A stretch of 64,000 bases of DNA from a virus: positions 143,192 to 207,191 of the IMG/VR virus record IMGVR_UViG_3300050821_002957. The stretch is one strand, 5' to 3'. Both the position numbers and the translations under genes were made by a program. This document shows positions 6,107 to 60,202 of the stretch, in pieces (the stretch's first letter is position 1; every line of letters begins with the position of its first letter). The notes below the pieces were generated by a model. The model saw only the letters and a list, made by a program, of their open reading frames with translations, searched no databases and had not been told where the DNA came from.

Positions 6107-6187
6107 AGTTGTTCCTTCCGGTCTCGATAGACCTTTCCTGAACCATCATAAAACATCTACATCTACTTTGTCAAGCAGATACATCAA

Positions 6188-11752: not shown

Positions 11753-11783
11753 TTGGGAAGTTGACACGCCTGCAATTTGCGGT

Positions 11784-13363: not shown

Positions 13364-13549
13364 AGAAGAAGTACTGAAAGTATGTGCTAAAGAGCGCCCA
13401 GAGTGGAGAATGCGCTACAGTCATCGGTATTTCTACATGTCCTGGGGTGCTGATACACTCGCTGAATTGCGGCGGATCGTATCTAATAAAGGTCTTAAAT
13501 TTGTGATTGATAATTCAAAATTTTGATACGAATTATTGTTGGAGTTTTC

Positions 13550-13579
13550 TTGTGTTTTGCTACCATATTCGTGTATTAT
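13550..13579 (+). promoter_or_regulatory. candidate promoter TTGTGT, 18 bp, TATTAT upstream of coaD
   Basis: Hexamers by eye. Confidence 0.3.
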
Positions 13580-13613
13580 GGTGTTCTAAGCTGGGTCGTA
13601 AAAAAGAACAGAA

Positions 13614-14132: not shown

Positions 14133-14144
14133 AGAGGTTAACAT
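14116..14144 (+). promoter_or_regulatory. promoter TTGACA, 17 bp, TAACAT, 8 nt before ATG 14153
   Basis: Exact -35 and 17-bp spacer. Confidence 0.45.
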
Positions 14145-14152
14145 CAAAACTA

Positions 14153-16540
14153 ATGACGAACGGATCAACCAATCATAATAGCGCTCTCGAAACCGTCTTA
14201 ACCGGCGAAGCGAGTAAGCTGCTTCATACACACAGTGCCACTGTCTTGGCGAAATACGGAAGCCTTAGGAAGGAATTGGAAGCTCTTCAGAATGCTGTCA
14301 ATAAGCATGAAGAGAAAATTTCAAAGTTAGTCAGAACCGCAAAGAAGCAACTCGATCCGTTTTACGATAGGTTTGATCCGACCAGCAAAGCAGGCGTCGA
14401 AGACCTCTCGATTTTCCGGTTCATTGATAACGTCGGCGGCAGTCTGATCAACTTCATGTCGAACAGCAGTGCAAGATTGCAGATGATCCAGATGTATAGT
14501 GATCTTCTGCTTCCGGCGCTTCAACACAAGACCAGTGAACTGTCAGACATCGTTCTGGCAGAAGACAGCGGATCTGAATTGATTCGTACCTGCTCTGCGG
14601 AATTTCAACAGACTGTACTTGGTTTCGAGAAGTTGTTAGCTTCTATCTACGTCGGCACTCGTGGTGAATACAAGAAGCTCCGTCGTAAGTTCTTGGGCGG
14701 AAGTGCGGCCCCTGATAACGATAACGTCGAAGATCAGTTGCTCATGTCCTTCTTTGGAACCAAACCGCCGCAACGTGAGACGACTGGTCCTGCAACTGCT
14801 CTGATCGATGAAAACTGTGTTCTGACTCAGTTGCTCATTGACATCGGTGAGAATCTTCCTCGTTTTTACGAAAAGGTCACCCCGATTTTGAAGCGTGGAA
14901 AGTTGTCCGGTAAGACCAAGACGACCAAAATTCTTGACCAGGGTGAAATTGAAGACTGGGCCGGTACGTTGACTTCAATTTCCAATCCGATCTACTGGAA
15001 GTACGTCAATAATCCTGGCGAACTGACCACGACCATTCTCAGTGTTGTAAAGGCATTCCAGACTGAATACACACAGATTGCAACTGCTCTGCACGCTCTG
15101 GTCATGAAGGCCAATCTCGAACACGAAGAGAAGCGGCGCATCATCGACGATCCGGCTGCGTTGACCAAGCAGTACAATCGTATCAACTTTCTGTCGATCA
15201 GACCGTCTGCTGAAGACATTGCTCCTCGCACCAAAATGGATGCAGATTTGGCAGCAGCACGTACCAAATTGTTTGTCCAGTTGAAAGAGACCATTGATCT
15301 TCTATCTCAGATGGATCACCACGAACAGACCACGGAAGATTTCGCTATCGACCGTGTAAGAAAGGCCATCGAACTGAAAGAAGCGATGGATGACATTCAG
15401 CGTACAGAAGCTCAGAAGCATCTCAAGCGCAATATTGCTGACGACAATGAATTCTACGTCGGCAAGTCGGGCAATCTTGGTTCGATTAGTTCCGAGCGTG
15501 AACCTGCTCCTCGCATCACGTATGACGATGTGATTGGTGCCAGCTTCATCAAGGCCAAGCAGCACGTCGATGAAGTAATCAAGGTTGCTTCTCATCCTCA
15601 CTTGATGCGTCTTTCGGCTCCTCGTGGAAATGTGAAGAGCAATTTGCTGTTCATTGGGCCTTATGGTTGCGGTAAGACGGAAATAGCTCGTGCTATCGGT
15701 GGTGACAAACGTATCATCGGCTTCAACGTTGCTGTTGCAGACATGTTGACTGCTTACATGCACGAATCGGTCAAGAACGTCAAGCGTGTCTATGATTGTG
15801 CCAAGGATCTCCGCAAGGGTTCTCGGTACACCAAGCCGGTTGCAATTTTGATGGACGAGTTTGATCGTCTCTTCAATTACGGCGAAGGTGTTCATGCTGC
15901 CTATGATGGCGGTCGCATGACTGGTGTTCTTCAGGAAATGATGGACGGCGTTGTGGACTACGAAGGTGTGTTCTTGGTCGGCATGACGAACGTTCCGAAG
16001 CAAATTCCTGAAGCTGTTCTGCGTCGGTTCAAGTACGTCGATGTGGTCGGTCAGTTGACGCAGGAAGAGCGGGTCAAGTTGTTCAAGATGTTCCTGACTC
16101 GTGGTCTCCCGGTCGATGAATCCGTCACCGAAGCCGATTATCTGAAGTGGGCCGATATGATGAATCACGCTCCTGGTGATGTCATTGGAAAGGTCACCGA
16201 CGAAATTCACTTCAAGTTCATGCATGAGCTTGTAACCCGAGACGAAAAAATCATCGCCACTCTAGAAAAGTCTTTGTCCAAGAAACTTCGTGATCGTGAA
16301 GCCAAGAAAACCGACTACACATTCCTGAAGGCAGCACTGGCGAAGCACAAGACGATTGGCGCAGCCGACATCACGACCGCACTGGAAGCAGTCATCGTCC
16401 AGCCACAAGTAAAGATGCAAATCAACAAGGCGAAGCAGACCTACAAGGATGCAGAAGACATCATGAAGGGTTTGAGTGCAATCGGCGAGTCGGACCACGG
16501 TTTCCACGGTCTGAAAAAGTCCCAAATCTGGGGCCAGTAA
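14153..16540 (+). CDS. large AAA+ ATPase-domain protein
   Basis: 795 aa. C-terminal AAA module with Walker A GPYGCGKT, Walker B ILMDEFD and SRH-like EAVLRRF. Confidence 0.8.
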   Translation: MTNGSTNHNSALETVLTGEASKLLHTHSATVLAKYGSLRKELEALQNAVNKHEEKISKLVRTAKKQLDPFYDRFDPTSKAGVEDLSIFRFIDNVGGSLINFMSNSSARLQMIQMYSDLLLPALQHKTSELSDIVLAEDSGSELIRTCSAEFQQTVLGFEKLLASIYVGTRGEYKKLRRKFLGGSAAPDNDNVEDQLLMSFFGTKPPQRETTGPATALIDENCVLTQLLIDIGENLPRFYEKVTPILKRGKLSGKTKTTKILDQGEIEDWAGTLTSISNPIYWKYVNNPGELTTTILSVVKAFQTEYTQIATALHALVMKANLEHEEKRRIIDDPAALTKQYNRINFLSIRPSAEDIAPRTKMDADLAAARTKLFVQLKETIDLLSQMDHHEQTTEDFAIDRVRKAIELKEAMDDIQRTEAQKHLKRNIADDNEFYVGKSGNLGSISSEREPAPRITYDDVIGASFIKAKQHVDEVIKVASHPHLMRLSAPRGNVKSNLLFIGPYGCGKTEIARAIGGDKRIIGFNVAVADMLTAYMHESVKNVKRVYDCAKDLRKGSRYTKPVAILMDEFDRLFNYGEGVHAAYDGGRMTGVLQEMMDGVVDYEGVFLVGMTNVPKQIPEAVLRRFKYVDVVGQLTQEERVKLFKMFLTRGLPVDESVTEADYLKWADMMNHAPGDVIGKVTDEIHFKFMHELVTRDEKIIATLEKSLSKKLRDREAKKTDYTFLKAALAKHKTIGAADITTALEAVIVQPQVKMQINKAKQTYKDAEDIMKGLSAIGESDHGFHGLKKSQIWGQ

Positions 16541-16547
16541 AATCCTC

Positions 16548-16593
16548 TTTACAATCGTTCATGGATCTGTTAGTATTTGGTCCATGAACGATT
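16548..16593 (+). promoter_or_regulatory. promoter TTTACA, 17 bp, TAGTAT, 7 nt, ATG 16584, embedded in a perfect 12-bp inverted repeat (aatcgttcatgg / ccatgaacgatt)
   Basis: The IR arms bracket the -10 element and include the start codon. Confidence 0.5.
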
Positions 16594-16793
16594 CCCTAAA
16601 AGGCACAATGAATTTGAATGAACTGATCATGGGTGTTCGGGCGGAACCGGCATTTAATGGTAAGGTTCGTCTTAAGTATCTTGCAATTTCAGGAGGCTGT
16701 GGCCCGGAACTGAGCATGGACTTCGATTTAGCAAGAAAAACCATCATGGCATTGGAAACGGCAATGGCGGGTGGAACCTACGAAAGCGAATAA
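16584..16793 (+). CDS. hypothetical small protein (paralog of the next gene at its N-terminus)
   Basis: MNDSLKGTMNL resembles MSDSFLNGSMPG of the 16844 gene. Confidence 0.5.
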   Translation: MNDSLKGTMNLNELIMGVRAEPAFNGKVRLKYLAISGGCGPELSMDFDLARKTIMALETAMAGGTYESE

Positions 16794-16794
16794 A

Positions 16795-16853
16795 GGTACA
16801 TCTACCTGTTGACAATCGCTCATGAGCCTGCTAGAATGGGTTCATGAGCGATT
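16795..16853 (+). promoter_or_regulatory. promoter family copy 4 (GGTACATCTACCTGTTGACA, 17 bp, TAGAAT, 6 nt, ATG 16844) with 12-bp inverted repeat (aatcgctcatga / tcatgagcgatt)
   Basis: Same architecture as the 16548 element. Confidence 0.5.
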
Positions 16854-18008: not shown

Positions 18009-18271
18009 CACTCAAAATATTGGTCATGTCGGCTTTGGAGACCATTTCCGAAGACGGAGGGTTTCTTCCGGCTACCAAAGATCCTGTCAATGCAACATCG
18101 AAGCGAGTGAAGCCAAATCCGTATGCTGGGTATGCTCCGCTTGCCGACGACATAATCAAGGCTTGGGATGAAGATCCTGACCAGATCGTTACTCCCGATG
18201 CCTATGAAGACGTTTGTATCGGCATTCATGAATACGCAAAAGCACGCCCACCAAAAAAGAAAGCGTCATGA
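18005..18271 (+). CDS. hypothetical protein
   Basis: 88-aa ORF with an ATGA overlap. Confidence 0.5.
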   Translation: MTLKILVMSALETISEDGGFLPATKDPVNATSKRVKPNPYAGYAPLADDIIKAWDEDPDQIVTPDAYEDVCIGIHEYAKARPPKKKAS

Positions 18272-18786
18272 TCCTCGACATTCTCAAAGCGCAAAACCCA
18301 GCAGACTTCACTTTCCTGAAAAAGAAAGCTGCTGATGTCACTTCATTCGGTGAAGCAATACAAGCTCTTGCCGACCAGATGATTGAAACCATGCTGGCAC
18401 CAAATGAAAATGGAGATCCCAGAGGCGTCGGTTTGGCTGGTCCACAAGTTGGTGTTGGCTTGAACATCTTCGTCATGCGTACCCAACATGGAATCGAACA
18501 TGACACTCGTGAATCGATGGTTATCATCAATCCTCACGTCCTAATCGAAACCAATGGCACCGAGGAAGAGATAGAAGGCTGTCTGAGCATTCCCGGCCTC
18601 TTAGGGAAGGTGAAGCGACACAAAGAGCTTGGCGTGGTGTTCTATGACGCCTACGGCCACCGCAAAGGCATGGCCTTGAGCGGTTTCATTGCCCGAGTCT
18701 TCCAACACGAGAAAGATCACCTGGACGGCATTCTCTTTACCGACCGAACCAAAGATTTGTACGTCCCAAAAAAGAAGGCATCATGA
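18268..18786 (+). CDS. def: peptide deformylase
   Basis: GVGLAGPQVG, EGCLSIPG and QHEKDHLDG motifs; 172 aa. Confidence 0.9.
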   Translation: MILDILKAQNPADFTFLKKKAADVTSFGEAIQALADQMIETMLAPNENGDPRGVGLAGPQVGVGLNIFVMRTQHGIEHDTRESMVIINPHVLIETNGTEEEIEGCLSIPGLLGKVKRHKELGVVFYDAYGHRKGMALSGFIARVFQHEKDHLDGILFTDRTKDLYVPKKKAS

Positions 18787-33261: not shown

Positions 33262-33395
33262 AGGCCAATCCTGGTGATTCGTGGAGCCTCTGCTGTTCGA
33301 GGCTCTCCCCACCGGGGTCTTATAAATAAAAACGTGGCAACCCCACATAGGAGGTCATCAATGTCAAGATTTATAGCTTAGGAGGCTTTAAATAC

Positions 33396-34319: not shown

Positions 34320-34526
34320 ATGAGATTTCTGTGTACGTTCCTTTTCTTTTTTGCAATTCTCTTGGGTGCCGAGACTCTTGCTAACAGTCACCATTTTATG
34401 GTGACCGGCACAGTACGAAATTACACAATCACAGAATTTCAACCTTCAAAGAACACACATTGTTACGTACTTGAACCTCATTACGATAGCAACTCACCAT
34501 CGATCAGTTGCGTCGTCGAGCCATAA
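34320..34526 (+). CDS. small secreted protein
   Basis: Signal-peptide-like N-terminus. Confidence 0.4.
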   Translation: MRFLCTFLFFFAILLGAETLANSHHFMVTGTVRNYTITEFQPSKNTHCYVLEPHYDSNSPSISCVVEP

Positions 34527-35089
34527 TGAAACCTCAAACACAAGAGCAATTCCATTTTTTCTATGGAGGTCCGTTCTCACAATGGGCCTTCTCGCCGTTC
34601 ACTGTCAATGGCATTTACTACAAGACCGCCGAGCATTACATGATGTGGTACAAAGACCAACTTTTCGGTGGTACACTCTCCGATGAAATTCTTGCTGTCG
34701 ATCATCCTCGTGATGCAAAGTTATTGGGCCGGAAAGTTCCAAATTTTAACATCAATGTTTGGAATGCTGTCGCCAAGCCGGGTGTCTATCGTGGCAACAT
34801 GGCGAAGTTCACACAAAATCCTCTCATGCTTCAACAGTTAATGGAGACCTATGGTTACACGTTGGTTGAAGCCTCGCCGACCGATATTGTCTGGGGAATC
34901 GGTTTGGGGGAGCATGATCCGCTGCGTCTTGACCGTTCAAATTGGCGTGGAACGAATTGGTTGGGTGATGTACTTATGGATGTTCGAGACACGTTGACGC
35001 TTGCCTATCGTTGGCATGATGATCCTTCTGAGATCGGCAATCCAACAATCATCGAAGGTGAGAATTTGATTGGATCGGTCGAGCTATGA
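34526..35089 (+). CDS. NADAR-domain protein (YbiA / DUF1768 N-glycosidase family)
   Basis: FFYGGPFSQWAFSPF, TAEHYMMWYK, GRKVPNFN, LVEASPTDIVWGIGL, WRGTNWLGDVLMDVR. Confidence 0.75.
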   Translation: MKPQTQEQFHFFYGGPFSQWAFSPFTVNGIYYKTAEHYMMWYKDQLFGGTLSDEILAVDHPRDAKLLGRKVPNFNINVWNAVAKPGVYRGNMAKFTQNPLMLQQLMETYGYTLVEASPTDIVWGIGLGEHDPLRLDRSNWRGTNWLGDVLMDVRDTLTLAYRWHDDPSEIGNPTIIEGENLIGSVEL

Positions 35090-35445
35090 CCGCAAAAATG
35101 ATATTGGAATTAGAAGACGTTTTGGACAGAAAAGAGTCTCAAGAACTGACTCGTACTTTATTGTGTCGTTTGCTGGCAAAGTACCGAGCGGCAAATTTCT
35201 TCATAAAGTATCACATCTCGTTGAATCGTACATATCCACAAATTATTTTGCAATATCCAGACAGCCGAAAAGAACGCTGGCTGTACAAAGAAAAAGGACT
35301 TGAACTGATTCCTTTTGGATTGCCAATCGTCTATAAGGTTCCTACCACAGTACGAAAGTGTGGGCAAATACATAGTTGTCGTAATGGATGTTCCCAATGC
35401 TGGGAGATCACCAAAATTGAAAAGGGGTATACCGAGGTAAGATGA
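35086..35445 (+). CDS. hypothetical protein
   Basis: 119-aa ORF. Confidence 0.45.
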   Translation: MTAKMILELEDVLDRKESQELTRTLLCRLLAKYRAANFFIKYHISLNRTYPQIILQYPDSRKERWLYKEKGLELIPFGLPIVYKVPTTVRKCGQIHSCRNGCSQCWEITKIEKGYTEVR

Positions 35446-36029
35446 TTTACTCAGGAACCGGCCATCGACTGGAAGTGTTGCGTGGGGCCGACGAAACTAT
35501 CGATCTAGAAGTTATCCACCACAAAGCTGTCAGGTATGCGAAAAGCATTCTTCCATCTTACGCCGACATCACTCAAGGTATTTCAGGAATGGCAATTGGA
35601 TGGGACACTGCCTTTGCTCTAGCTCTGCTCGATCACGGTGTCCCAGTGATCGCTGCCATTCCGTTTATTGGTCAAGAAAGCATTTGGCCGGAACATGCCA
35701 AAAAACGTTATCACGAAATTCTTGACAAGTGCGCCGAGGTCCATGTTGTCTGTGAAGGTGGTTACGCTCCGCACAAATATCATGAGCGGGACAAATGGAT
35801 GGTCGAGCGGGGTCAAAAAATGATGGCTCTATGGAACGGTCATCCAAAAGGTGGAACTGCTGCGACCGTGCGCTATGCAAAGAAGGCAGGCAAAGAAATT
35901 GTCAATGTCTGGCCGGGATGGGAAATTTTTGAAATTGGATGCCCATGCGGATGCGGAGCCGATAGCGAGTCACATTGTTGGAATGCTTCTACGTGGGATA
36001 ATGAAGGTGGTCAAACTCAAATTTTTTGA
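35442..36029 (+). CDS. SLOG-superfamily Rossmann protein (LOG/DprA/YpsA-like)
   Basis: GISGMAIGWDTAFALALLDHGVPVIAAIPF and a later GGTAATVRYA segment resemble the LOG-family PGGxGT region. Confidence 0.45.
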   Translation: MIYSGTGHRLEVLRGADETIDLEVIHHKAVRYAKSILPSYADITQGISGMAIGWDTAFALALLDHGVPVIAAIPFIGQESIWPEHAKKRYHEILDKCAEVHVVCEGGYAPHKYHERDKWMVERGQKMMALWNGHPKGGTAATVRYAKKAGKEIVNVWPGWEIFEIGCPCGCGADSESHCWNASTWDNEGGQTQIF

Positions 36030-36695: not shown

Positions 36696-36913
36696 TGTCA
36701 CAAGGCGTTTTTAGTTCTTGTGGTTTTTGTGGACTCCATCTCCCTTTGACTTTTGATGAACAAAAAGATGCCGACCGAGCATGGAAATTCAGCGGAATGA
36801 ACATCCATGAATGGCATCGCCGCAAGTTTCCAAATTACCATCCCCGGTTGACATTCAAGGTTCCGCTTGATATCATTGAGAAATGTCAAAGCCAGACAAA
36901 AAAGATTCAGTGA
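36695..36913 (+). CDS. hypothetical small protein
   Basis: 72-aa ORF. Confidence 0.4.
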   Translation: MSQGVFSSCGFCGLHLPLTFDEQKDADRAWKFSGMNIHEWHRRKFPNYHPRLTFKVPLDIIEKCQSQTKKIQ

Positions 36914-37863
36914 TCCTTACCGGGACCATTGGATCTCATAGCTACGGAACGGCCACGCCGACTTCAGATTACGACTACATGTCCGTCGTGATTGCATCGT
37001 CTGACGTGTACCTGGGTCTTGACAATTGGGGAACTGCTGGAACCAAAGACGACGTTTACGAAGATCCCGAAAAGAGTCTGGTCGAACATCGGTATTTTGA
37101 ATTGAAAAAGTTCGTTGGTATGTGCGCCGGAATGAACCCAAATGCAGTTCCGCTTTTGTGGCTGCAACCGGAGCACTACGAAACCATGTCGGCGGCTGGT
37201 AGAAAGCTCGTCCAGGCCCGAGAGATTTTTAATTCCAAAAAAGCATACGATACGTTCTCTGGTTACGCTCATGGTCAGCTTCAAAAAATGGGCGGCGTGT
37301 TCAATGATGCCGAAGAGTCGAACAAACTCTTGAAGCAAGGTCATATCAAATTTCAAGACTGGTCTGAAGACATGATCAAGCTGCTTCGGATGATTCGTGA
37401 TGGAAAGTCACCGATCCCTGAAGACGCCAAGCCTGCGGACATTTACATTTACGACGAAGGATGGTTGAACGCTCTTATTGCCTTGAAGACTCATTCCAAG
37501 GAAGAGATCAAGCGTATCAAAGACGGTCCAATCACCGGGCGCATGGGAGCGAAGCGGAAAGAGCTTCGTTCTCAATATGGTTTCGACACTAAATTTGCTT
37601 TTCATACGATTCGACTGATGAGAATGTGCGTCGAATTTCTTACGCACCCTGAAGAAGGTCTGAAGGTGTACCGCAAAGACATCGATGCTGACTTCTTGTA
37701 CTCAATCAGAACCGGCGCTGTCTCACAAGAAGACATCAAGAAGATGGCCGACGACCTGTTCGCTCAAGCCAAAGAAGCCTTGGTCACCACGTCTCTTCCA
37801 GATAAGCCTGACACCGAAGCAATTCATAACTTGACGATGGACCTGATTAGATCATCCATTTGA
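36883..37863 (+). CDS. predicted minimal nucleotidyltransferase (PF10127-like)
   Basis: LTGTIGSHSYGTATPTSDYDYMSVV (GS...D-x-D motif); 326 aa. Confidence 0.5.
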   Translation: MSKPDKKDSVILTGTIGSHSYGTATPTSDYDYMSVVIASSDVYLGLDNWGTAGTKDDVYEDPEKSLVEHRYFELKKFVGMCAGMNPNAVPLLWLQPEHYETMSAAGRKLVQAREIFNSKKAYDTFSGYAHGQLQKMGGVFNDAEESNKLLKQGHIKFQDWSEDMIKLLRMIRDGKSPIPEDAKPADIYIYDEGWLNALIALKTHSKEEIKRIKDGPITGRMGAKRKELRSQYGFDTKFAFHTIRLMRMCVEFLTHPEEGLKVYRKDIDADFLYSIRTGAVSQEDIKKMADDLFAQAKEALVTTSLPDKPDTEAIHNLTMDLIRSSI

Positions 37864-39176: not shown

Positions 39177-39869
39177 ATGAAAACTCTGCTAACCGCCCTC
39201 GTTTTATTTGGTGTTGCTGCTTCAGCGCAGACATCGCAAGAAAAGCCGTGCCCAAATGGTGGCTACGGTCCAGATTGCATCGTTCCCGGACTATTGCAAC
39301 TTCCTTCCGAAACCACGACCACTCCTAAGTCCGATAAGATTTCTGACGGATCAACATCAAATGATCTGTTCTTCATGGTTGGCTCCGATTTCGACCGTCC
39401 TGGTTTGCTGCCTCGTGCAAATTACAATGTCGGCCTGGGTCACACTTTCTCCTTCTTGACCAATTCTCCTGTTCATTATTTCGGCGATGAAGTTACCGTT
39501 GCGTACACTTACGAAAACGGTGGACCGAAAGGTTTCTGGCATGGTCCTACAAGCACCAGCACTGAAAGCCTTGGTCTGATGAAAAACATCAGCATTCCGC
39601 ATACGAAGAAAGTTACTGTCTACACTTGGCCGCAACTCGGTCTTACATCCATTTTTACCGGAAAGCCAGCGACAATACTGGATACAAAAGTGGTTGTTGA
39701 TGGTGTTCCTCTTCCTCCCACACAAAATCGTCTGTATGCCGGTTTTGCTATTGGGGCGATCATCCACCTTCCACACAACACGTCCATTTGGATTCAAGAG
39801 AGCTACAACAAAGTCGTGACGGTGCCGTGGTACACAACGACTTCGATTGGCTATACGATCAGCTTCTAA
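39177..39869 (+). CDS. secreted beta-barrel-like outer-membrane protein
   Basis: Signal peptide MKTLLTALVLFGVAASAQT. C-terminus SIGYTISF ends in Phe. Confidence 0.5.
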   Translation: MKTLLTALVLFGVAASAQTSQEKPCPNGGYGPDCIVPGLLQLPSETTTTPKSDKISDGSTSNDLFFMVGSDFDRPGLLPRANYNVGLGHTFSFLTNSPVHYFGDEVTVAYTYENGGPKGFWHGPTSTSTESLGLMKNISIPHTKKVTVYTWPQLGLTSIFTGKPATILDTKVVVDGVPLPPTQNRLYAGFAIGAIIHLPHNTSIWIQESYNKVVTVPWYTTTSIGYTISF

Positions 39870-39989
39870 TGATACTACAATCACTAAAACAATTTTTGGG
39901 ACGCATTATGTTTTAGTCTCCTTGGGATGTTCCCTTCGGTATTTAGTTGCTAGAATATTTCTTCCGGCATAGGAAAATTTTATAAGGTA

Positions 39990-40018
39990 TTGACAGGATA
40001 CGGGTCTTGTGCTATAAA
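39990..40018 (+). promoter_or_regulatory. sigma70-type promoter TTGACA, 17 bp, TATAAA driving the tmRNA precursor
   Basis: Consensus -35, exact 17-bp spacer and near-consensus -10 lying 7 to 8 nt before the acceptor piece. Confidence 0.6.
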
Positions 40019-40025
40019 TAGAGTC

Positions 40026-40325
40026 GTAGCAGATAGTCGAAGTGAACGAAGAACGCTTCTTGGACATGGGTTCAATTCCCATCGGCTCCACCAAAATTCT
40101 GATTTTAGGCATCAGAGAACTTATGGGGCCGCCCCGGTTTCGACAGGATGAGATGTTGCGTAAGCAGGGCTACCGTGGTCCTTGTCCACGTTATCCAGAA
40201 GGAATCATAAACGCTAATGCACCTGCATTTGCTTTCGCTGCCGCTGCCTAAACAGCGCTCGAACGAAGTCGGAGAACTTTGTTAAAGAACTCCCAACAGA
40301 AGGCCGGGGCAACTCGGCCTTTTGC
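40026..40325 (+). ncRNA. ssrA: circularly permuted (two-piece) tmRNA: acceptor piece ends in CCA at 40093, coding piece starts GGGGCCG at 40125, tag frame 40213..40251, terminator 40301..40325
   Basis: T-arm GGGTTCAATTCCC. 3' acceptor strand CGGCUCC-A-CCA pairs with downstream 5' GGGGCCG, giving G3-U70 and discriminator A (alanine identity). Tag ORF ANAPAFAFAAAA + TAA. GC hairpin followed by a T-run. Confidence 0.75.
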
Positions 40326-40490
40326 TTTTTGAAAGGTTGTGTTTATGAGACGACATTTGAAAATGGTCCATCACCACGGCAAACGAGCACTAAAGTCTAA
40401 GTACGGACAGGTGTTCATCATCCTGTGGTTCGTGCCGGAAGCCATTGCACTTTTTGGTTTGATATGGGCTGCATGGCGACACCTTGTAAA

Positions 40491-40841
40491 ATGAAGTTTC
40501 TTCTGTTCATTCTCTTATTCTTCGCATCAAGCGCCTGGGCCGCAGAGAAGCCTCTTGTCGAAAAATGCTTCAAAGTCCAGTCTCTCATCAAGGCAGATCC
40601 AGAGCATTATTGGGCTACCTGGAAGAACGCCTGTCCGTACATCATTGACTCGATCTACGTAAACGTCGATTTCAAAGACAAGGCCGGAAGCATTCTTGGA
40701 CATGGAGTCTGGTCGCTACATTATGTCAAACCGGGCGAGGGCCGCTACATTCGATTCTCAACTCCATCCTTGACAAGTGACTATTTCTCTGTTATCTTAA
40801 AAGAGATTACTTTGGACGCTTTCAAAGCTCTACGGTACTAA
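40491..40841 (+). CDS. small secreted protein
   Basis: MKFLLFILLFFASSAWA signal peptide (the listed ORF starts upstream at a GTG). Confidence 0.5.
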   Translation: MKFLLFILLFFASSAWAAEKPLVEKCFKVQSLIKADPEHYWATWKNACPYIIDSIYVNVDFKDKAGSILGHGVWSLHYVKPGEGRYIRFSTPSLTSDYFSVILKEITLDAFKALRY

Positions 40842-40932
40842 ATACGAACATGGTACGTTTTTCCACCATCACGACAAGCACTACCACGACCGTCTAGTTC
40901 CTCTAGAACGGTCCACTTCCCATTTCAATTAA

Positions 40933-41008
40933 GCCGAATTAGCTCAGTTAGCAGAGCGCCGCCCTCGTAATGCGGAGGTCATGAGTGCAACTCTCATATT
41001 CGGCTCCA
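40933..41008 (+). tRNA. tRNA-like gene, anticodon CGT (Thr), with noncanonical T-loop (TGCAACT) and 31-39 mismatch; CCA encoded
   Basis: Cloverleaf by hand: acceptor GCCGAAT/ATTCGGC, D GCTC/GAGC, anticodon loop CTCGTAA, T-stem ATGAG/CTCAT. Confidence 0.45.
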
Positions 41009-41011
41009 AAT

Positions 41012-41085
41012 GCCGCCTTATTTCAATGGTAGACTCTATCTCTGGTACAGATAGGATTTGGGTTCGATTCCCAAAGGCGGCTCCA
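41012..41085 (+). tRNA. tRNA, anticodon GGT (Thr) in the best parse (alternative parse CTG/Gln); weak D-stem; CCA encoded
   Basis: Acceptor GCCGCCT/AGGCGGC, anticodon stem TATCT/AGATA with loop CTGGTAC, T-arm TTGGG-TTCGATT-CCCAA. Confidence 0.55.
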
Positions 41086-41139
41086 CATAGTTTCGGAAAA
41101 TCGATGTGTCTAAATATCCAATAAGAGGATATTCCGAAC

Positions 41140-41766
41140 ATGACACGCAGCGAAGCCGGAAGGTTAGGTGGACAAATTATAGGGCAAAGAAATCGTGATG
41201 AGTCGTTTGCTCGATATTATGCAAACCCAAAATATTGTTTCCAGTGCGGATCGATCATTAAAATTCCACTGGGTAAGAGATACCAGTCCATTGCAAACAA
41301 GAAATTTTGTACGTCAAGTTGTTCGGCAACGTTTAACAATGCACAACGAGGACGGAAGGAACGGCTATGCAAGCGATGTAGCGCTGTCATCTCAAATTCC
41401 AACAAAGAATTTTGCAGCCATGTTTGTAGCAATCAATTTCGATACGAAAGATTCATTAAAGAGTGGCGAGCCGGGGACACATCAAAGGCTTCAACTTGCG
41501 ACGGACTATCCATCAGCAACCATATCCGTCGCTATCTGTTCGATAAGTATGAATCGAAGTGCTGTAAGTGTGGCTGGAACCGAGTCAATTCGGTAACTGG
41601 AAGAATTCCTCTAGTCGTCAATCACATCGATGGGCACTCGGAGAATAATTTAGAAAGCAACCTGGAGCTTATCTGCCCATCTTGCGATAGCCTAACGCCG
41701 ACCTACATGGCTCTGAACATTGGTCACGGTAGGAAGGCTCGTTACCGGGCAAAGGGTCCAAAATAA
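41140..41766 (+). CDS. HNH homing endonuclease
   Basis: CCKCGWN...PLVVNHIDGHSENNLESNLELICPSCDS (HNH motif); located immediately after the tRNA pair. Confidence 0.7.
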   Translation: MTRSEAGRLGGQIIGQRNRDESFARYYANPKYCFQCGSIIKIPLGKRYQSIANKKFCTSSCSATFNNAQRGRKERLCKRCSAVISNSNKEFCSHVCSNQFRYERFIKEWRAGDTSKASTCDGLSISNHIRRYLFDKYESKCCKCGWNRVNSVTGRIPLVVNHIDGHSENNLESNLELICPSCDSLTPTYMALNIGHGRKARYRAKGPK

Positions 41767-41833
41767 TTTTATAGCTTCGCTTGACAGGTTCTTTTCCTTA
41801 GTGTATTCTTAGTTCAGGCTTAGGGAAAATTTA

Positions 41834-43051
41834 GTGCAACAAACTAGAACATCGACGACTTTTCGTGTTAAACATACTCCGTGGAATAAAGGTAAGAAGA
41901 CCGGAGTTGGTGGACCTAAAGGGAGAAAATGGACAACAGAAGAGCGTCAACGAAGTTCTGAGGTACGGAAAGGACAAACCCCTTGGAATAAAGGGAAGAC
42001 GGGAATTGGTGTGTGGTCCTCACAGCGCCGCAAACAACATACCGAAAAGATGAAAAAACGGTGGGCTGTTTCCCTGCAAACACGAGATGAAAAATTATCG
42101 GTTTCTATGAAGAAAGTTCTATCAACAGTGGATTACACTTTCATTAGTCACTATAGAGGAATGACCGGAAAGTGGCCGCTCGTCCGAATCATCTACAAGT
42201 GTACAAAAGGACACAAAATTGATGCTTCATGGCCTGCTGTTAAACGAGCCATAGAAATTCGTGGATCAAATTGTCGCTTGTGTTCAATTCAGGTAAAACG
42301 AGAACATCCTTTTCCTGGTAGAATACACATAAAACCGTTTTCTACATATGCCTTACTATTCAAAGAAGCAGGAGCAACTCTTCTTTCAATTGAATACAAT
42401 CCTAAAAAGGAATTTCATTATGTGTGTCGGTGTGGTAAACGTTGTAAAACGACTCACTACCAACGTTACCAGTGTCGAGAGTGTGGAAACAAAGCCGGGG
42501 CACAAAAAAATCGAGAATTTATTAGACCTATAGGATTAGCCGCTCCTGGTCATCTTGGACAAAAGCGTGCTTCTAGACTCGAACAACTTCAAGCAGAATT
42601 TTTAGCAGCCGGATGTAAGATAACAAAATATGTAAATTGCAAGCGAATGTACTACATTTGTTCATGTGGAGGGTTTGGTGTTTCCACTTTGTGGAATTGG
42701 CGTCGGGGCGCACGATGTTCAAAATGTTCGTCTAGACGACAAGGCAAACAGAAGTCGTTTAAAGAAATTCTAGCCACATTCTTGAAGGCTGGATGTGTCC
42801 CTTTGTTCGATCAATATCTGAATGCTCATGATCCTTTACGATTTCGTTGTCGATGTGGTCGCATTGCCCAGAAAGGCTTCCAAATGTTCGAGCATCATCC
42901 GCACTGCATTCATTGTGGGCGAGAAATCCAAGCCCAACAGGGACAGCGTATCACTAAAATTAGAAAATTCTATCAAGAGGCAATTACTAAAATCAATGTT
43001 TCCCGAGAATTGAAACGTGTCCTGAAAGGGGTCAAGAAGATGGGACCATGA
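41834..43051 (+). CDS. Cys-rich protein with PWNKGK repeats and four tandem zinc-ribbon-like repeats (homing-endonuclease-type DNA-binding modules?)
   Basis: HTPWNKGKK / QTPWNKGKT repeats; repeated (Y/F)xCxCG...CxxC units. Confidence 0.45.
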   Translation: MQQTRTSTTFRVKHTPWNKGKKTGVGGPKGRKWTTEERQRSSEVRKGQTPWNKGKTGIGVWSSQRRKQHTEKMKKRWAVSLQTRDEKLSVSMKKVLSTVDYTFISHYRGMTGKWPLVRIIYKCTKGHKIDASWPAVKRAIEIRGSNCRLCSIQVKREHPFPGRIHIKPFSTYALLFKEAGATLLSIEYNPKKEFHYVCRCGKRCKTTHYQRYQCRECGNKAGAQKNREFIRPIGLAAPGHLGQKRASRLEQLQAEFLAAGCKITKYVNCKRMYYICSCGGFGVSTLWNWRRGARCSKCSSRRQGKQKSFKEILATFLKAGCVPLFDQYLNAHDPLRFRCRCGRIAQKGFQMFEHHPHCIHCGREIQAQQGQRITKIRKFYQEAITKINVSRELKRVLKGVKKMGP

Positions 43052-48512: not shown

Positions 48513-48806
48513 ATGGCAAAGAATTTACCTCAAGATCAGTACCACATTGAACTTTGCACTCAATTCTGCGCTGACGTTGAAGCGCTGATTAACGAGAGCA
48601 ACAAGAAAGCAGACGAAAGAGTCGCCAAGGCCGGAAAAGCTACGACACGACTCGGATACGTAGATGCAGTCCTCATTGTAGCGGAACGCCGGAAAATAGA
48701 ACCGGACCTCGCAGCCGCCTACCTCAACCCAGAAATCAAACAGAAAATGCAGCAAGAGTGGGAGAACAAACACATGCTCCCAAAGTCTGCTCGATTACCG
48801 TTCTGA
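48513..48806 (+). CDS. hypothetical protein
   Basis: 97-aa ORF. Confidence 0.45.
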   Translation: MAKNLPQDQYHIELCTQFCADVEALINESNKKADERVAKAGKATTRLGYVDAVLIVAERRKIEPDLAAAYLNPEIKQKMQQEWENKHMLPKSARLPF

Positions 48807-48807
48807 C

Positions 48808-49086
48808 ATGACGCAGACGTATTTCACATTCGGCCATGATGGAGTGATAGAATTTCAAGGCTATCTTGACACTCTTTACGGAACGGTGACGCCCGACGAA
48901 GATGACAAAAATGTTCATCGTCTGCCGTACAACCATTCAGTGCTTAATCGTGATGTCTGGAAGACTCAGGACGAAGCGATAGCAGCATACCAAGCCTCAG
49001 TGACCAAAGATGTTCAAAGTGTGATCCTACGTTATCGTAAAGCCTGTGAACAGTATCCTGGTTTCTTTGTGATGTGGCCTGAATGA
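48808..49086 (+). CDS. hypothetical protein
   Basis: 92-aa ORF. Confidence 0.45.
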   Translation: MTQTYFTFGHDGVIEFQGYLDTLYGTVTPDEDDKNVHRLPYNHSVLNRDVWKTQDEAIAAYQASVTKDVQSVILRYRKACEQYPGFFVMWPE

Positions 49087-49712
49087 CCGGATACGATGCC
49101 TGCCGCCGTTTCATGGCGTTGAACAATCACTTCTTCCAACCGAATTATGATTTCTTTAAGTACAAAGGTGGAGTACCTCTCAAGTTTGATACTTATGATG
49201 CCAAGCGCCAAGACGAAAAGCACAGATATGATCGACTAGGCCGAAAATTTCAATCCGACGAAGACCTTGAAAATTTCATGGTCGCCAATCTTCTCGAATC
49301 CAAGAAGAGGCTGTGGGTCGGCGCACTGTTTGGTGGTGAAGCAGACAACGTTTACATTCGCTGGCAAGGTCGAACTCAGGCGATTCAGTACAATCTCACC
49401 AGTGAAGTTAGACGGCTTGTAGACCGGCTGGAGAGTTTCAATGCTCTTTTCAAAGTAGCCGACAATGAACATCCTGAAATCTTGAAAGCCTATCTTCGGG
49501 GCGACATCTCTTTAGAGAGTTTTGTAGTCCTTGACCTTTGCATTGGTTTCATTGACAACATCGATGTAAAGCTCAGTGATGATCGAAATTGGACCATTGT
49601 CAAGCATAAAGCCATTAAGTACAGACCTTTCCTCGAACGGCTAAATATCGACATCCCGGCGCTCCGAAAAGCAGTGCTGGAGTCGATCCGAGGATTGGGG
49701 GTTACAAGCTAA
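49083..49712 (+). CDS. gp59: gp59-like helicase-loading protein
   Basis: Sits immediately upstream of the gp32 homolog, as in T4. ISLESFVVLDLCIGFIDNID parallels T4 gp59 ISFETFILLDSFLNIIDK. Similar length (209 vs 217 aa). Confidence 0.55.
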   Translation: MTGYDACRRFMALNNHFFQPNYDFFKYKGGVPLKFDTYDAKRQDEKHRYDRLGRKFQSDEDLENFMVANLLESKKRLWVGALFGGEADNVYIRWQGRTQAIQYNLTSEVRRLVDRLESFNALFKVADNEHPEILKAYLRGDISLESFVVLDLCIGFIDNIDVKLSDDRNWTIVKHKAIKYRPFLERLNIDIPALRKAVLESIRGLGVTS

Positions 49713-49984
49713 TGCCTGTTACAAAAGATACTCAATTGGACTACTTCATGGATGTCGTTCTTAGGAACTACTGTCGTGCTGCCGAAGAGTGCGAATTTTT
49801 ATACCAAGAAGCAGAAGATTTAAGGAATTGTCTGACAATTCTTTTCCAAGAAAATTCCGATCTTCGATTTCGATTGCAAGAGGCTGGGCTTGAAGTTCCT
49901 GTCTCAAATTTTGTCACGGCAGAAGAGGCTGCGGCAATGGACGATCAGGAAATGTTTCCAGTCGAAAATAACGATTTAGCCTAA
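49712..49984 (+). CDS. hypothetical protein
   Basis: 90-aa ORF. Confidence 0.45.
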   Translation: MPVTKDTQLDYFMDVVLRNYCRAAEECEFLYQEAEDLRNCLTILFQENSDLRFRLQEAGLEVPVSNFVTAEEAAAMDDQEMFPVENNDLA

Positions 49985-50135
49985 TGAATACGGGGCTGTC
50001 AGGCCGAAAACTTGACAGTCCTGAAAACCGTGAGATGCTAAATATGTTGAGAGATTATGAAGGCAGCAACGCAGTGAGTTGCTTGCAGAAAGGCAGTGGA
50101 TACAACGTTAAACATACGAGAGATACTACGAAAAT

Positions 50136-51143
50136 ATGTCGATTACAAAAAACACAGAGTCCCGTACACAGTACTTGGCCTCTCTCCGCAGCAAAGTCCA
50201 GGAGATGTCCTCTCCCAAGGGTTCCTCAAACAACACAAGACAGAATGATGATCGCTACTGGCGTCCAGAAGTAGATAAAGCTGGCACCGGAAGCGCAGTT
50301 ATTCGTTTCCTTCCTCCGAAGTCTGGTAATGCTTTTCCGTTCGTCCAGCTTTGGAGCCACGGTTTCCAAAATCCCGAGAACAGCAAGTGGTTCATTGACA
50401 ATTGCCCGTCCTCACTTGGTGGCCTTCCCTCTGATGTTTGCCCGGTTTGCGCCGACAACAACAGTTTGTGGAATGCAGACAAGGACAAGGAAAGTCCGCT
50501 GAAGAAGTTGGCTTCGTCTCGCAAGCGCAAGCTATCTTACATCAGCAACATTTTGGTTGTGAAAGATCCAAAACATCCTGAGAATGAAGGCAAGGTGTTC
50601 TTGTTCAAGTATGGCAAGAAAATCTTCGAGAAGATCAAGGACATGATTGATCCTCCAGCCGAATTCGCAGACATGCAGCCCATCGATCCATATGACATGG
50701 AAGAAGGCGCAAACTTCAAGCTCCGTCAGGTGAAGGTAGACAACTTCCCGAACTATGACAAGTCCAGTTTCGACGCTCCTTCGGCAGTCGGTGACGAAGA
50801 CTACATCGCATCAATCGAAGCACAGTTGATCGATCTGAATTCGTTGCTCGATCCGAAGCACTTCAAGCCATATGCAAAGTTGGCCGAACGCTTCACATTT
50901 GTAACTGGTGCAGCAGCCCCGAGCACCACATCTACAGGCGGCGACAGTGCTGTCTCTACTCCATCGGTTGAAGATGGAATGACCGATGATGAGCCGGTAG
51001 CAAAGCCAGCCGCAGCAAGGACCGCAACGTCTAAGCCTGCTGGTCGAACCGCAAAGCCGAAAGCAACTGCGGAAGTACCGGATGCAACACAAGATGACGA
51101 TTACTTCGAGAAGTTGGCCGCACAGTCAGCAAACGAAGACTAA
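50136..51143 (+). CDS. gp32: single-stranded DNA-binding protein, T4 gp32 family
   Basis: DKAGTGSAVIRFLPP, Cys/His zinc site, LWNADKDKESPLKKLASSRKRKLSYISNILVVKDPKHPENEGKVF (nearly identical to T4 gp32), acidic C-terminal tail. Confidence 0.95.
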   Translation: MSITKNTESRTQYLASLRSKVQEMSSPKGSSNNTRQNDDRYWRPEVDKAGTGSAVIRFLPPKSGNAFPFVQLWSHGFQNPENSKWFIDNCPSSLGGLPSDVCPVCADNNSLWNADKDKESPLKKLASSRKRKLSYISNILVVKDPKHPENEGKVFLFKYGKKIFEKIKDMIDPPAEFADMQPIDPYDMEEGANFKLRQVKVDNFPNYDKSSFDAPSAVGDEDYIASIEAQLIDLNSLLDPKHFKPYAKLAERFTFVTGAAAPSTTSTGGDSAVSTPSVEDGMTDDEPVAKPAAARTATSKPAGRTAKPKATAEVPDATQDDDYFEKLAAQSANED

Positions 51144-60177: not shown

Positions 60178-60202
60178 ATACGTATTTAGCCCATATAAAT
60201 AA

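What the first reader, a model, noticed from the sequence alone, without database searches (positions are those of the whole stretch)
39990..40330. Circularly permuted (two-piece) tmRNA gene with its own promoter and terminator inside a T4-like phage region
The sequence GGACATGGGTTCAATTCCCATCGGCTCCACCA at 40062..40093 is a T-arm plus 3' acceptor strand plus CCA. The matching 5' acceptor strand GGGGCCG starts about 31 nt downstream, at 40125. This is the gene order of permuted ssrA genes in alpha-proteobacteria and some cyanobacteria and beta-proteobacteria.

The two acceptor strands pair as GGGGCCG/CGGCUCC with a G3-U70 wobble and discriminator A, which is the alanine identity set. Downstream lies a tag reading frame, ...GCU AAU GCA CCU GCA UUU GCU UUC GCU GCC GCU GCC UAA, giving ANAPAFAFAAAA. 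A perfect TTGACA-17-TATAAA promoter sits just upstream, and a GC hairpin plus T-run lies at 40301..40325.

Phage genes with a phage promoter architecture flank both sides, so the tmRNA appears phage-encoded rather than a host attB remnant. Phage tmRNAs are rare and a permuted one is unusual. Together with peptide deformylase and the tRNAs, it suggests this phage manipulates ribosome rescue and nascent-chain processing.
Basis: partly seen in the sequence, partly recalled or inferred. Interest (0 to 1): 0.8.

Follow-up and report, generated by a model that had tools for sequence, protein, structure and literature searches.

The report
Two-piece tmRNA gene in jumbo phage
This is a genuine, intact, circularly permuted (two-piece) tmRNA gene carried by a large T4-related phage. 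It most likely helps rescue stalled ribosomes during infection, but such genes are already documented in T4-like and huge phages, so it is a new example of a known kind.

Summary
ARAGORN calls a permuted tmRNA at 40001-40342 with tag ANAPAFAFAAAA. Rfam tmRNA_permuted (RF04321) matches full length at 93.5 bits (gathering score 47, E 9e-17).

The 64-kb window is a T4-related phage (gp32, gp33, gp59, gp2, gp48, baseplate genes). The same sequence lies on a 404-kb public contig.

A related phage contig (L050) has the same upstream gene order and a tmRNA 81% identical. Nine helix pairs differ by compensatory changes, so the RNA is inherited and under structural selection.

The best lineage-specific model is the betaproteobacterial one (67 bits, below its gathering score of 84). 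No SmpB gene is in the window.

The novelty claim is overstated. Two-piece tmRNAs in T4-like myophages (Melnitz, Mosig) and tmRNAs in huge phages are published. I found about 40 further phage-borne permuted tmRNAs, several upstream of gp33 as here.

The modestly new points are a divergent sub-lineage, uncharged Ala-rich tags, and a conserved tmRNA position upstream of gp33 that holds either alpha-type or beta-type genes.

Verdict: new member of a known kind, interest 0.3.

The parts
39990..40020 (+). Promoter: -35 TTGACA (39990-39995), 17-nt spacer with extended -10 TG (40010-40011), -10 TATAAA (40013-40018). It overlaps TATAAATA (40013-40020), the T4 late-promoter consensus.
   Evidence: Read and located. 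It belongs to the phage's recurrent TTGACA-N14/15-TGnTAnnnT class; TTGACA occurs 77 times against 31 expected. TTGACA and GTGCTATAAATAGA are conserved in the relative L050 while the spacer differs. The beta_tmRNA model aligns its own promoter positions here. Activity is inferred.
40026..40093 (+). Acceptor piece (about 68 nt). 5' strands of P2: GUAGC 40026-40030, 40045-40048, 40056-40058, 40060-40062. T-arm 40066-40082 (stem AUGGG/CCCAU, loop UUCAAUU). 3' acceptor strand CGGCUCC 40083-40089, discriminator A40090, encoded CCA 40091-40093.
   Evidence: RF04321 alignment. Pair checks. Compensatory changes against L050 in the T-stem and P2. The 5' end at about 40026 is inferred from the promoter position and from the conserved GUAGC.
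40094..40124 (+). Intervening segment that is removed during maturation; contains the hairpin UCUGAU/AUCAGA (40098-40103 with 40111-40116).
   Evidence: The hairpin is kept in L050 through two compensatory changes, giving UCUCAA/UUGAGA. Excision by RNase P and 3' processing enzymes is inferred from what is known of permuted tmRNAs (PMC11915505).
40125..40212 (+). Start of the coding piece. 5' acceptor strand GGGGCCG 40125-40131 (G3 = 40127). D-loop analogue CCCCGGUUUCGA 40132-40143. 3' strands of P2 40144-40173. PK1 stem 1 CGUGG/CCACG 40174-40178 with 40186-40190. PK1 stem 2 UCCUU/AAGGA 40179-40183 with 40199-40203. AUCAUAAAC spacer before the resume codon.
   Evidence: PK1 stem 1 has two compensatory changes in L050. 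Only 3 of 5 pairs of stem 2 are kept in L050.
40213..40251 (+). Tag reading frame: resume codon GCU at 40213, 12 codons encoding ANAPAFAFAAAA, stop UAA 40249-40251. The stop lies in the loop of a hairpin like helix 5 (40242-40246 with 40253-40257).
   Evidence: ARAGORN. Sequence. The hairpin has one compensatory change in L050. The L050 tag is ANFGYALPVAA, in frame with a 3-nt gap.
40252..40296 (+). 3' trailer with hairpin GGAG..CUCC (40271-40274 with 40290-40293; inner CUUU/AAAG 40277-40280 with 40284-40287). The loop region CUUUGUUAAAG matches the loop motif of the beta_tmRNA model.
   Evidence: beta_tmRNA alignment with high posterior probability over the loop. The sequence is almost invariant between the window and L050, and the single change breaks an inner pair, so what is conserved is sequence rather than pairing.
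40297..40330 (+). Intrinsic terminator: 12-bp stem (40297-40308 with 40313-40324), loop GCAA, then CUUUUU.
   Evidence: Kept in L050 with one compensatory and four one-sided changes. It aligns to the terminal hairpin of the beta_tmRNA model.

Best explanation
A functional, phage-encoded, circularly permuted ssrA gene.

Proposed steps (the sequence features are shown; every step of action is inferred):
1. A precursor of about 300 nt is transcribed from a conserved early-type promoter that overlaps a T4 late-type TATAAATA box. It ends at the intrinsic terminator.
2. Host tRNA-processing enzymes remove the 31-nt intervening hairpin: RNase P cuts 5' of G40125, and 3' trimming stops at the encoded CCA.
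3. This leaves an acceptor piece of about 68 nt and a coding piece of about 200 nt, held together by the 7-bp acceptor stem and the interrupted P2 helices.
4. Host alanyl-tRNA synthetase charges the RNA through G3:U70 and A73.
5. With host SmpB and EF-Tu (no smpB is in the window) it enters ribosomes stalled on broken mRNAs.
6. Translation resumes at GCU 40213, adds ANAPAFAFAAAA, stops at UAA, and the ribosome is released.

The likely benefit to the phage is to keep ribosome rescue running during a lytic infection, when host transcription is shut off and mRNA cleavage is heavy.
For: Shown:
- ARAGORN and Rfam hits (E 9e-17). The RF04321 score of 93.5 equals that of the annotated SsrA of cultured Pelagibacter phage Mosig, 93.6.
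- All tRNA-like-domain features, PK1, the resume context UAAAC|GCU and a stop codon in a hairpin loop are present.
- 12 of 14 model-assigned P2 pairs are canonical.
- The related phage contig L050 has the same upstream gene order (RlaP 75%, ORF154 71%, ORF230 50% amino-acid identity) and a tmRNA 81% identical.
- On an explicit 68-pair structure, 95.6% of cells pair and 9 pairs carry compensatory changes. Slid controls give 0-1, and 0 of 500 shuffles reach the observed value.
- Promoter and terminator are conserved.
- The window is a T4-type lytic phage with no integrase family among the Pfam hits.

Inferred: processing, charging, dependence on host SmpB, and the benefit to the phage. These rest on established tmRNA biology and on the discussion of phage tmRNAs in PMC9004378 and PMC7162821.
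Against: - There are no expression or processing data.
- The isolated P2 duplex is no more stable than shuffled sequence (z = -0.28).
- PK1 stem 2 keeps only 3 of 5 pairs in L050 unless a 1-nt bulge is allowed.
- The covariation test has only two sequences, and the structure was derived from one of them.
- The tag lacks the usual acidic ANDxx start and the LAA/VAA end, so how it is recognised by host proteases is uncertain.
- No smpB was found, although only 64 kb of a contig of about 404 kb was examined.
Confidence: 0.85

Rival explanations
1. The RNA works as a tmRNA, but its main role is to change the fate of tagged proteins. Its uncharged, Ala/Phe-rich tag would avoid host adaptor recognition (SspB type) or change protease targeting, instead of simply supplementing host trans-translation.
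For: - The tags of this sub-lineage have no charged residue: ANAPAFAFAAAA in the window, ANFGYALPVAA in L050 and ATAPLAMAAAA in L039.
- Nearly all the other roughly 45 phage and bacterial permuted tmRNAs gathered here start ANDxx/ANExx and end LAA/VAA.
- The tag diverges fast between the window and L050 while the flanking RNA is conserved.
Against: - The C-terminal Ala-Ala is kept. From my own knowledge, C-terminal Ala runs act as ClpXP degrons in bacterial ribosome quality control, so an AAAA end is likely still a degradation signal.
- L050 ends in the canonical-looking PVAA.
- No experimental data exist, and natural tags vary widely, down to Ala-Ala (PMC11915505).
Confidence: 0.08
2. The RNA is a decoy that inhibits host trans-translation by titrating SmpB or AlaRS, as proposed for the tRNA-like-domain-only RNA of mycobacteriophage DS6A.
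For: - No phage smpB is in the window, so the RNA must compete for host SmpB.
- The precedent is described in PMC4131195 and PMC11915505.
Against: - Unlike the DS6A RNA, this gene keeps a complete mRNA-like domain: PK1, the resume context, an open in-frame tag and a stop codon.
- The tag frame stays open and in frame in L050 despite many substitutions.
- PK1 stem 1 and the hairpin like helix 5 show compensatory changes.
Confidence: 0.04
3. The gene is a recently captured host ssrA, or an attachment-site remnant, with no role in the phage.
For: - tmRNA genes are common integration sites, and fragments of them occur in prophages (PMC9004378, PMC4383910).
- The beta_tmRNA model aligns even across the promoter region.
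Against: - The gene is complete.
- The phage is T4-type with no integrase family among the Pfam hits.
- No species-representative bacterial genome among 185,579 carries this acceptor stem together with this T-loop.
- The few genomes that share the acceptor stem (Burkholderiales) have quite different sequences, 41-45% identical in the alignment.
- The gene sits at the same locus in a phage whose flanking proteins have diverged to 50-75% identity, and it carries compensatory changes.
Confidence: 0.03

Closest known systems
Two-piece SsrA of T4-like marine myophages: Pelagibacter phage Mosig EXVC030M (MT647606.1) and Methylophilales phage Melnitz (PMC9004378)
   Same: - A complete, permuted tmRNA gene in a lytic T4-like phage.
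- Transcribed in the same direction as the gp33-gp59-gp32 replication and late-transcription module, and upstream of it.
- Almost the same RF04321 score: 93.6 against 93.5.
- The same genome also carries a peptide deformylase.
- Preceded by an early-type promoter.
   Different: - The Mosig tmRNA is best matched by the alpha model (RF01849, 67.6 bits), the window by the beta model (RF01850, 67.1 bits).
- The two are only about 42% identical in the alignment.
- The tags differ: GEDNFALAA against ANAPAFAFAAAA.
- In Mosig and Melnitz the gene lies directly upstream of gp33. Here 8.2 kb of tRNA genes, HNH-like ORFs and small ORFs intervene.
- The glutamine riboswitch reported in Melnitz and Mosig has no counterpart here; no such Rfam hit was found.
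- The phage proteins are only 31-41% identical.
Betaproteobacterial two-piece tmRNA (Rfam RF01850 beta_tmRNA) and the beta-type copies on IMG/VR phage contigs (for example L044, L004, L034, L002, L020, L023, L019)
   Same: - RF01850 is the best-scoring lineage model, and the alignment is full length. It covers the promoter, the tRNA-like domain, P2, the PK1 hairpin, the tag, a 3' hairpin with a UUGUUA-type loop, and the terminator.
- The acceptor stem GGGGCCG/CGGCUCC in a permuted gene occurs in Burkholderiales genomes.
- Several beta-type phage copies also lie 0.5-2.4 kb upstream of gp33.
   Different: - The score of 67.1 is below the family's gathering score of 84, while typical phage copies score 105-166.
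- The outermost P2 helix of the model is not matched.
- The tag is unlike ANDERFALAA-type tags.
L050, metagenome contig Ga0075163_10004146 (unnamed relative of this phage)
   Same: - Same locus and same upstream gene order.
- tmRNA 81% identical, with the same promoter boxes, acceptor stem, G3:U70, 3' hairpin and terminator.
   Different: - A 20-nt insertion in the 5' arm of the acceptor piece.
- A different tag (ANFGYALPVAA, 11 residues).
- Different sequence downstream of the gene.
tmRNAs of huge or jumbo phages (Al-Shayeb et al. 2020, PMC7162821; Sinorhizobium phage AP-J-162, PMC11242549; Bacillus phage G, PMC4131195)
   Same: A large phage genome (the same sequence lies on a 404-kb contig) that carries a tmRNA together with tRNAs and other translation-related genes.
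   Different: - Those reports do not describe the gene form or the locus.
- Some of those phages also encode SmpB; none was found in this window.

Membership tests
tmRNA, permuted (two-piece) form, Rfam RF04321 | Score at or above the curated gathering score, over the full model | tested here: met
   93.5 bits against 47, model positions 1-213 of 213, E 8.6e-17. ARAGORN independently calls a permuted tmRNA.
tmRNA, permuted (two-piece) form, Rfam RF04321 | Permuted gene order: T-arm, 3' acceptor strand and CCA lie upstream of the 5' acceptor strand, separated by an intervening segment | tested here: met
   CGGCUCC-ACCA at 40083-40093, a 31-nt segment, then GGGGCCG at 40125-40131.
tmRNA, permuted (two-piece) form, Rfam RF04321 | Alanine identity elements: G3:U70 wobble and discriminator A73 | tested here: met
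   G40127:U40087 and A40090. The wobble pair is unchanged in L050.
tmRNA, permuted (two-piece) form, Rfam RF04321 | Inter-piece P2 pairing between the 5' arm of the acceptor piece and the coding piece after GGUUUCGAC | tested here: met
   12 of 14 model-assigned pairs are canonical. Against L050 there are two compensatory changes and one repaired mismatch, and GUAGC/GCUAC is invariant. Caveat: the duplex energy alone is not better than shuffles (z = -0.28).
tmRNA, permuted (two-piece) form, Rfam RF04321 | Pseudoknot PK1 just upstream of the resume codon | tested here: inconclusive
   Stem 1 (CGUGG/CCACG) is supported by two compensatory changes. Stem 2 (UCCUU/AAGGA) forms in the window, but only 3 of 5 pairs persist in L050 unless a bulge is allowed.
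tmRNA, permuted (two-piece) form, Rfam RF04321 | Tag reading frame that starts at a GCN resume codon and ends in Ala-Ala followed by a stop | tested here: met
   GCU at 40213 through UAA at 40249-40251, encoding ANAPAFAFAAAA. The frame is kept open in L050.
tmRNA, permuted (two-piece) form, Rfam RF04321 | Processing into two RNAs, alanylation, SmpB binding and trans-translation activity | not testable with these tools
   Needs RNA-seq or Northern blots, in vitro charging, and detection of tagged peptides.
Betaproteobacterial two-piece subtype, Rfam RF01850 | Score at or above the gathering score of 84 bits | tested here: not met
   67.1 bits, full-length alignment, best member of clan CL00001 at this site. 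It resembles this subtype most, but I do not file it as a member.
Alphaproteobacterial two-piece subtype, Rfam RF01849 | Best-scoring lineage model at the locus | tested here: not met
   It was outscored by the beta model in the clan competition and so was not listed. In the control, Mosig is won by the alpha model. The alpha score itself could not be seen.
Melnitz/Mosig-type phage ssrA (PMC9004378) | Located in a lytic T4-like genome, upstream of and co-oriented with the gp33 late-transcription coactivator | tested here: met
   gp33 is at 48513-48806, then a gp59-like ORF and gp32. It lies 8.2 kb downstream, not adjacent as in Mosig.
Melnitz/Mosig-type phage ssrA (PMC9004378) | Glutamine (glnA) riboswitch in the 3' part of the gene | tested here: not met
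   No riboswitch family appears in the Rfam scans of the window or of 39800-41200.

The most novel reading that the evidence does not exclude
T4-related phages keep a dedicated tmRNA position upstream of the gp33-gp59-gp32 module, and the resident gene there can be of either permuted lineage: alpha-type in Mosig and Melnitz, firmly beta-type in L019, L023, L027 and L031, and a divergent beta-like form here and in L050. If the resident gene is swapped when the phage changes host, its subtype would mark host lineage. Such phages could also have carried permuted tmRNA genes between bacterial classes. The window, L050 and L039 would then represent a lineage with uncharged Ala-rich tags that has so far been seen only in phages.
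Probability: 0.15. Interest if true: 0.55.

Novelty: new member of a known kind. Interest (0 to 1): 0.3.

Why it matters
It adds a well-supported, structurally intact example to the small set of phage tmRNAs; the 2025 tmRNA database holds 79 unique phage sequences.

It extends that set to a very large (about 404 kb) T4-related phage that is distant from all cultured ones.

It also points to two things that can be tested:
- whether the position upstream of gp33 is a conserved home for tmRNA genes across T4-like phages;
- whether phage tags without charged residues still direct proteolysis.

By itself it does not change what is known about trans-translation or phage biology.

Tried and rejected
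1. blastn (distant mode) of the locus against 50,697 deposited phage genomes found no match.
2. A pattern requiring this exact acceptor stem plus T-loop found nothing in genome contigs or metagenome contigs. Relaxing the T-arm gave 6 and 7 loci, one of which (L050) proved to be the real relative.
3. Searching viral contigs with the upstream neighbour protein found no relatives. The downstream HNH-like ORF only led to tRNA arrays in unrelated large phages.
4. The Logan contig L053 is 100% identical over the locus, so it gave no variation to use.
5. The thermodynamic test of P2 against shuffles was not significant, and the minimum-free-energy folds did not reproduce P2.
6. L039 shares the acceptor stem and the tag style, but it fits the model's P2 poorly (7 non-canonical positions) and is only 43% identical. 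I did not use it for covariation.
7. A scan for the tag-coding pattern found only L039 again.
8. tblastn with the window's gp33 found nothing among deposited phages. I established synteny from the Mosig annotation and from local phmmer searches instead.
9. The defining paper of the beta two-piece lineage (PMC516066) is not in the held library.
10. The GAGAACUU repeat (40115 and 40272) and the GAACGAAG repeat are not conserved in L050, so I dismissed them as chance.
11. The reading of a host remnant or attachment site, and the reading of a false positive, were both rejected; the reasons are given under the rival explanations.

Full report
**1. Observation**

- TTGACA (39990-39995), a 17-nt spacer, TATAAA (40013-40018);
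- a T-arm (stem AUGGG/CCCAU, loop UUCAAUU, 40066-40082);
- the 3' acceptor strand CGGCUCC (40083-40089) followed by ACCA (40090-40093);
- a 31-nt intervening segment;
- the 5' acceptor strand GGGGCCG (40125-40131), which pairs to give G3:U70;
- the tag frame GCU...GCC UAA (40213-40251);
- a 12-bp hairpin plus T-run (40297-40330).

ARAGORN calls a permuted tmRNA at 40001-40342 with tag ANAPAFAFAAAA. Rfam's tmRNA_permuted model (RF04321) matches over its full length at 93.5 bits, against a gathering score of 47 and with E = 8.6e-17 for the whole window.

**2. Context**

The window is phage DNA throughout.
- Pfam and PHROG scans of 100 non-overlapping ORFs find the T4 core set: gp32, the gp33 late-transcription coactivator, the gp59 helicase loader, baseplate proteins, the gp2 DNA-end protector, the gp48 tail-tube cap, head-closure proteins, dNMP kinase and an exonuclease. 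They also find peptide deformylase, PhoH, RNA ligase, RlaP, NADAR and others.
- No integrase and no SmpB family appears.
- The closest deposited phages are only 31-41% identical in protein. They are pelagimyophages, rhizobiophages and cyanomyophages.
- The same sequence occurs on a 34-kb Logan contig, identical over the locus, and on a 404,282-bp ENA contig. The phage is therefore probably a jumbo T4 relative.
- Peptide deformylase lies at 18268-18786, 21 kb from the tmRNA.

**3. Anatomy**

- The RF04321 alignment places the interrupted P2 helices between the 5' arm of the acceptor piece and the stretch after GGUUUCGAC. Of 14 assigned pairs, 12 are canonical.
- Taken alone, this duplex is no more stable than shuffled sequence (z = -0.28). 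P2 is therefore supported by positional homology, not by energy.
- PK1 can form as CGUGG/CCACG plus UCCUU/AAGGA. It ends 9 nt before the resume codon.
- The stop codon sits in the loop of a small hairpin.
- A further hairpin and the terminator follow.

**4. A real relative**

Most other permuted tmRNAs I gathered share only the universal core with the window. They are 41-50% identical in a global alignment.

The exception is L050, a 19-kb metagenome contig.
- Its tmRNA is 81% identical in pairwise alignment.
- Its upstream genes are syntenic: a SLOG protein, RlaP at 75%, ORF154 at 71%, ORF52 at 49% and ORF230 at 50% amino-acid identity.
- On an explicit 68-pair structure including the pseudoknot, 95.6% of cells pair.
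- Nine pairs show changes on both sides. These lie in P2 (two), the T-stem, the intervening hairpin (two), PK1 stem 1 (two), the hairpin like helix 5, and the terminator.
- Slid controls give 0-1 such pairs, and 0 of 500 shuffles reach the observed values.
- The invariant GUAGC (40026-40030) pairing with GCUAC (40169-40173) is a better outermost P2 helix than the one the generic model chose.
- PK1 stem 2 is only partly kept (3 of 5 pairs).

Caveats: there are only two sequences, and the structure was derived from one of them. Even so, the gene is clearly inherited at this locus and is under selection for its structure.

**5. Promoter**

- The promoter belongs to the phage's recurrent early class, TTGACA-N14/15-TGnTAnnnT. 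TTGACA occurs 77 times against 31 expected.
- The -10 hexamer TATAAA lacks the usual final T. It is preceded by an extended -10 TG.
- It also reads TATAAATA, the T4 late-promoter consensus. This is one of three copies in the window, all upstream of + strand genes; 3.5 are expected by chance, so this alone is weak evidence.
- TTGACA and GTGCTATAAATAGA are both conserved in L050, while the spacer between them is not.
- Expression both early and late in infection is therefore plausible, but it is inferred.

**6. Subtype**

- Among the lineage-specific models, the betaproteobacterial one (RF01850) is best. It scores 67.1 bits over its full length, including the promoter positions, a 3' hairpin with a UUGUUA-type loop and the terminator. 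This is below its gathering score of 84.
- In the control, Mosig's annotated SsrA scores 93.6 on RF04321 and is won by the alpha model at 67.6.
- Many IMG/VR phage copies are firmly beta-type at 105-166 bits.
- A permuted gene with the acceptor stem GGGGCCG/CGGCUCC occurs in a few Burkholderiales genomes. No species-representative genome has this stem together with this T-loop.
- I therefore call the RNA beta-like but do not file it as a member of RF01850.

**7. What is already known**

- PMC9004378 describes two-piece tmRNAs in the T4-like myophages Melnitz and Mosig. It counts 402 tmRNA-bearing phages among 18,146 genomes, with 53 two-piece forms and 17 of 47 Melnitz-like contigs. It also shows phage tmRNAs in all three permuted lineages.
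- PMC11915505 lists 79 unique phage tmRNAs.
- PMC7162821 reports tmRNA and SmpB in huge phages.
- PMC11242549 reports a tmRNA in a 471-kb rhizobiophage.
- The Mosig annotation shows tmRNA, gp33, ThyX, gp59, gp32, gp2 and then baseplate genes, in that order. Mosig also has a peptide deformylase.

The kind is therefore known.

**8. What is modestly new**

- (a) Position. gp33 lies downstream on the same strand here (8.2 kb away), in Mosig and Melnitz (adjacent), and in four loci with firm beta-type tmRNAs (0.55-2.4 kb). This suggests a conserved position that holds different subtypes.
- (b) Tags. The tags of the window, L050 and L039 contain no charged residue, unlike almost all the others gathered. 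A tag-pattern scan of IMG/VR finds only L039.
- (c) Genome size. The host genome of this tmRNA is a 404-kb contig.

**9. Mechanism and rivals**

The best explanation is a working two-piece tmRNA that relies on host AlaRS, SmpB and EF-Tu and keeps ribosome rescue going during lytic infection. The sequence features are shown; processing, charging and the benefit to the phage are inferred.

Each rival reading is unlikely:
- a role in redirecting tagged proteins through the unusual tag;
- an SmpB-titrating decoy;
- a passive host remnant.

The reasons are that the gene is complete, its tag frame stays open in the relative, its helices co-vary, and no close bacterial source exists.

**10. Verdict**

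A confirmed new member of a known kind. Interest 0.3.

Noticed in passing
L010 6515-7324 (tmRNA 6067-6409); L032 9724-10293; L023 3804-4364; L027 569-1120: A ClpP-family protease ORF lies just downstream of the permuted tmRNA in several IMG/VR phage contigs. In L023 and L027 it sits between the tmRNA and gp33. GroES and GroEL genes also occur downstream of some phage tmRNAs. The window has no such ClpP. A tmRNA next to a ClpP hints at a functional link between tagging and degradation in those phages.
   Followed up: partly
window 48513-51143; L055 (Mosig) 11745-16806; L019, L023, L027, L031: The order tmRNA, gp33, gp59, gp32 recurs in T4-like phages whether the tmRNA is alpha-type (Mosig) or beta-type (L019, L023, L027, L031). 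The tmRNA-to-gp33 distance ranges from 0 to 8.2 kb.
   Followed up: partly
L044 1459-3372 (contig binned as a Methanoregula MAG); L043 (binned as Saccharibacteria): L044 carries a strong beta-type permuted tmRNA (165.8 bits) inside an array of tRNA-Gln, Met, Asn, Met and Gly on a 4.5-kb contig assigned to an archaeal MAG. This looks like a mis-binned phage contig. It may bear on the 'archaeal tmRNAs' reported in PMC11915505.
   Followed up: no
window 40933-41085 and 41140-43051; L035-L037: Two tRNA-Thr genes (CGU, GGU) lie 0.6 kb downstream of the tmRNA, followed by two HNH-like ORFs. Homologues of the first ORF (41140-41766) sit inside tRNA arrays of other large phages, like homing endonucleases in tRNA islands.
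   Followed up: partly
window 10325-11752, 34526-35089, 35442-36029, 36883-37863 (other ORFs not localised): The window holds a set of RNA-repair or RNA-modification genes: RNA ligase, NADAR, a SLOG/YpsA-DprA-like protein and RlaP. A cyclic-phosphate-processing receiver domain (cREC_REC) and a cytidylyltransferase were also hit, but I did not localise them. RlaP and its neighbours are conserved next to the tmRNA in L050. This may amount to a toolkit for keeping translation going or for countering host defence.
   Followed up: partly
L042 1147-1477, L045 1045-1375, L046 1350-1684: Permuted tmRNAs in Burkholderiales genomes (Caldimonas, a betaproteobacterial MAG) and in one metagenome contig have tags ending K-x-A instead of AA: ANADIYLKWA, ANDSIYLKRA, ANDGFYLKQA. 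They may be second copies or copies carried on mobile elements.
   Followed up: no
window 33321-33328, 40013-40020, 60194-60201: The only three copies of the T4 late-promoter consensus TATAAATA in the window all lie on the + strand, upstream of + strand genes. One is right before the gp48 tail-tube cap gene. The count itself matches chance expectation (3.5).
   Followed up: no
window 40271-40293 and L050 equivalent: The 3' hairpin region of the coding piece (GGAGAACUUUGUUAAAGAACUCC) is almost invariant between the two phages. The single change breaks a base pair, so sequence is conserved and not pairing. Its loop resembles the loop motif of the beta_tmRNA model. Its function is unknown.
   Followed up: partly
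ENA ERZ27253678 contig k141_5803278 (404,282 bp); L056: The phage in the window is part of a 404-kb contig. That would make it one of the larger T4-related genomes, if the contig is not a concatemer or a misassembly.
   Followed up: no
window 40494-40841: The ORF just after the tmRNA terminator begins with a signal-peptide-like sequence (MKFLLFILLFFASSAWAAEKP...). It has no family match and no counterpart downstream of the tmRNA in L050.
   Followed up: no
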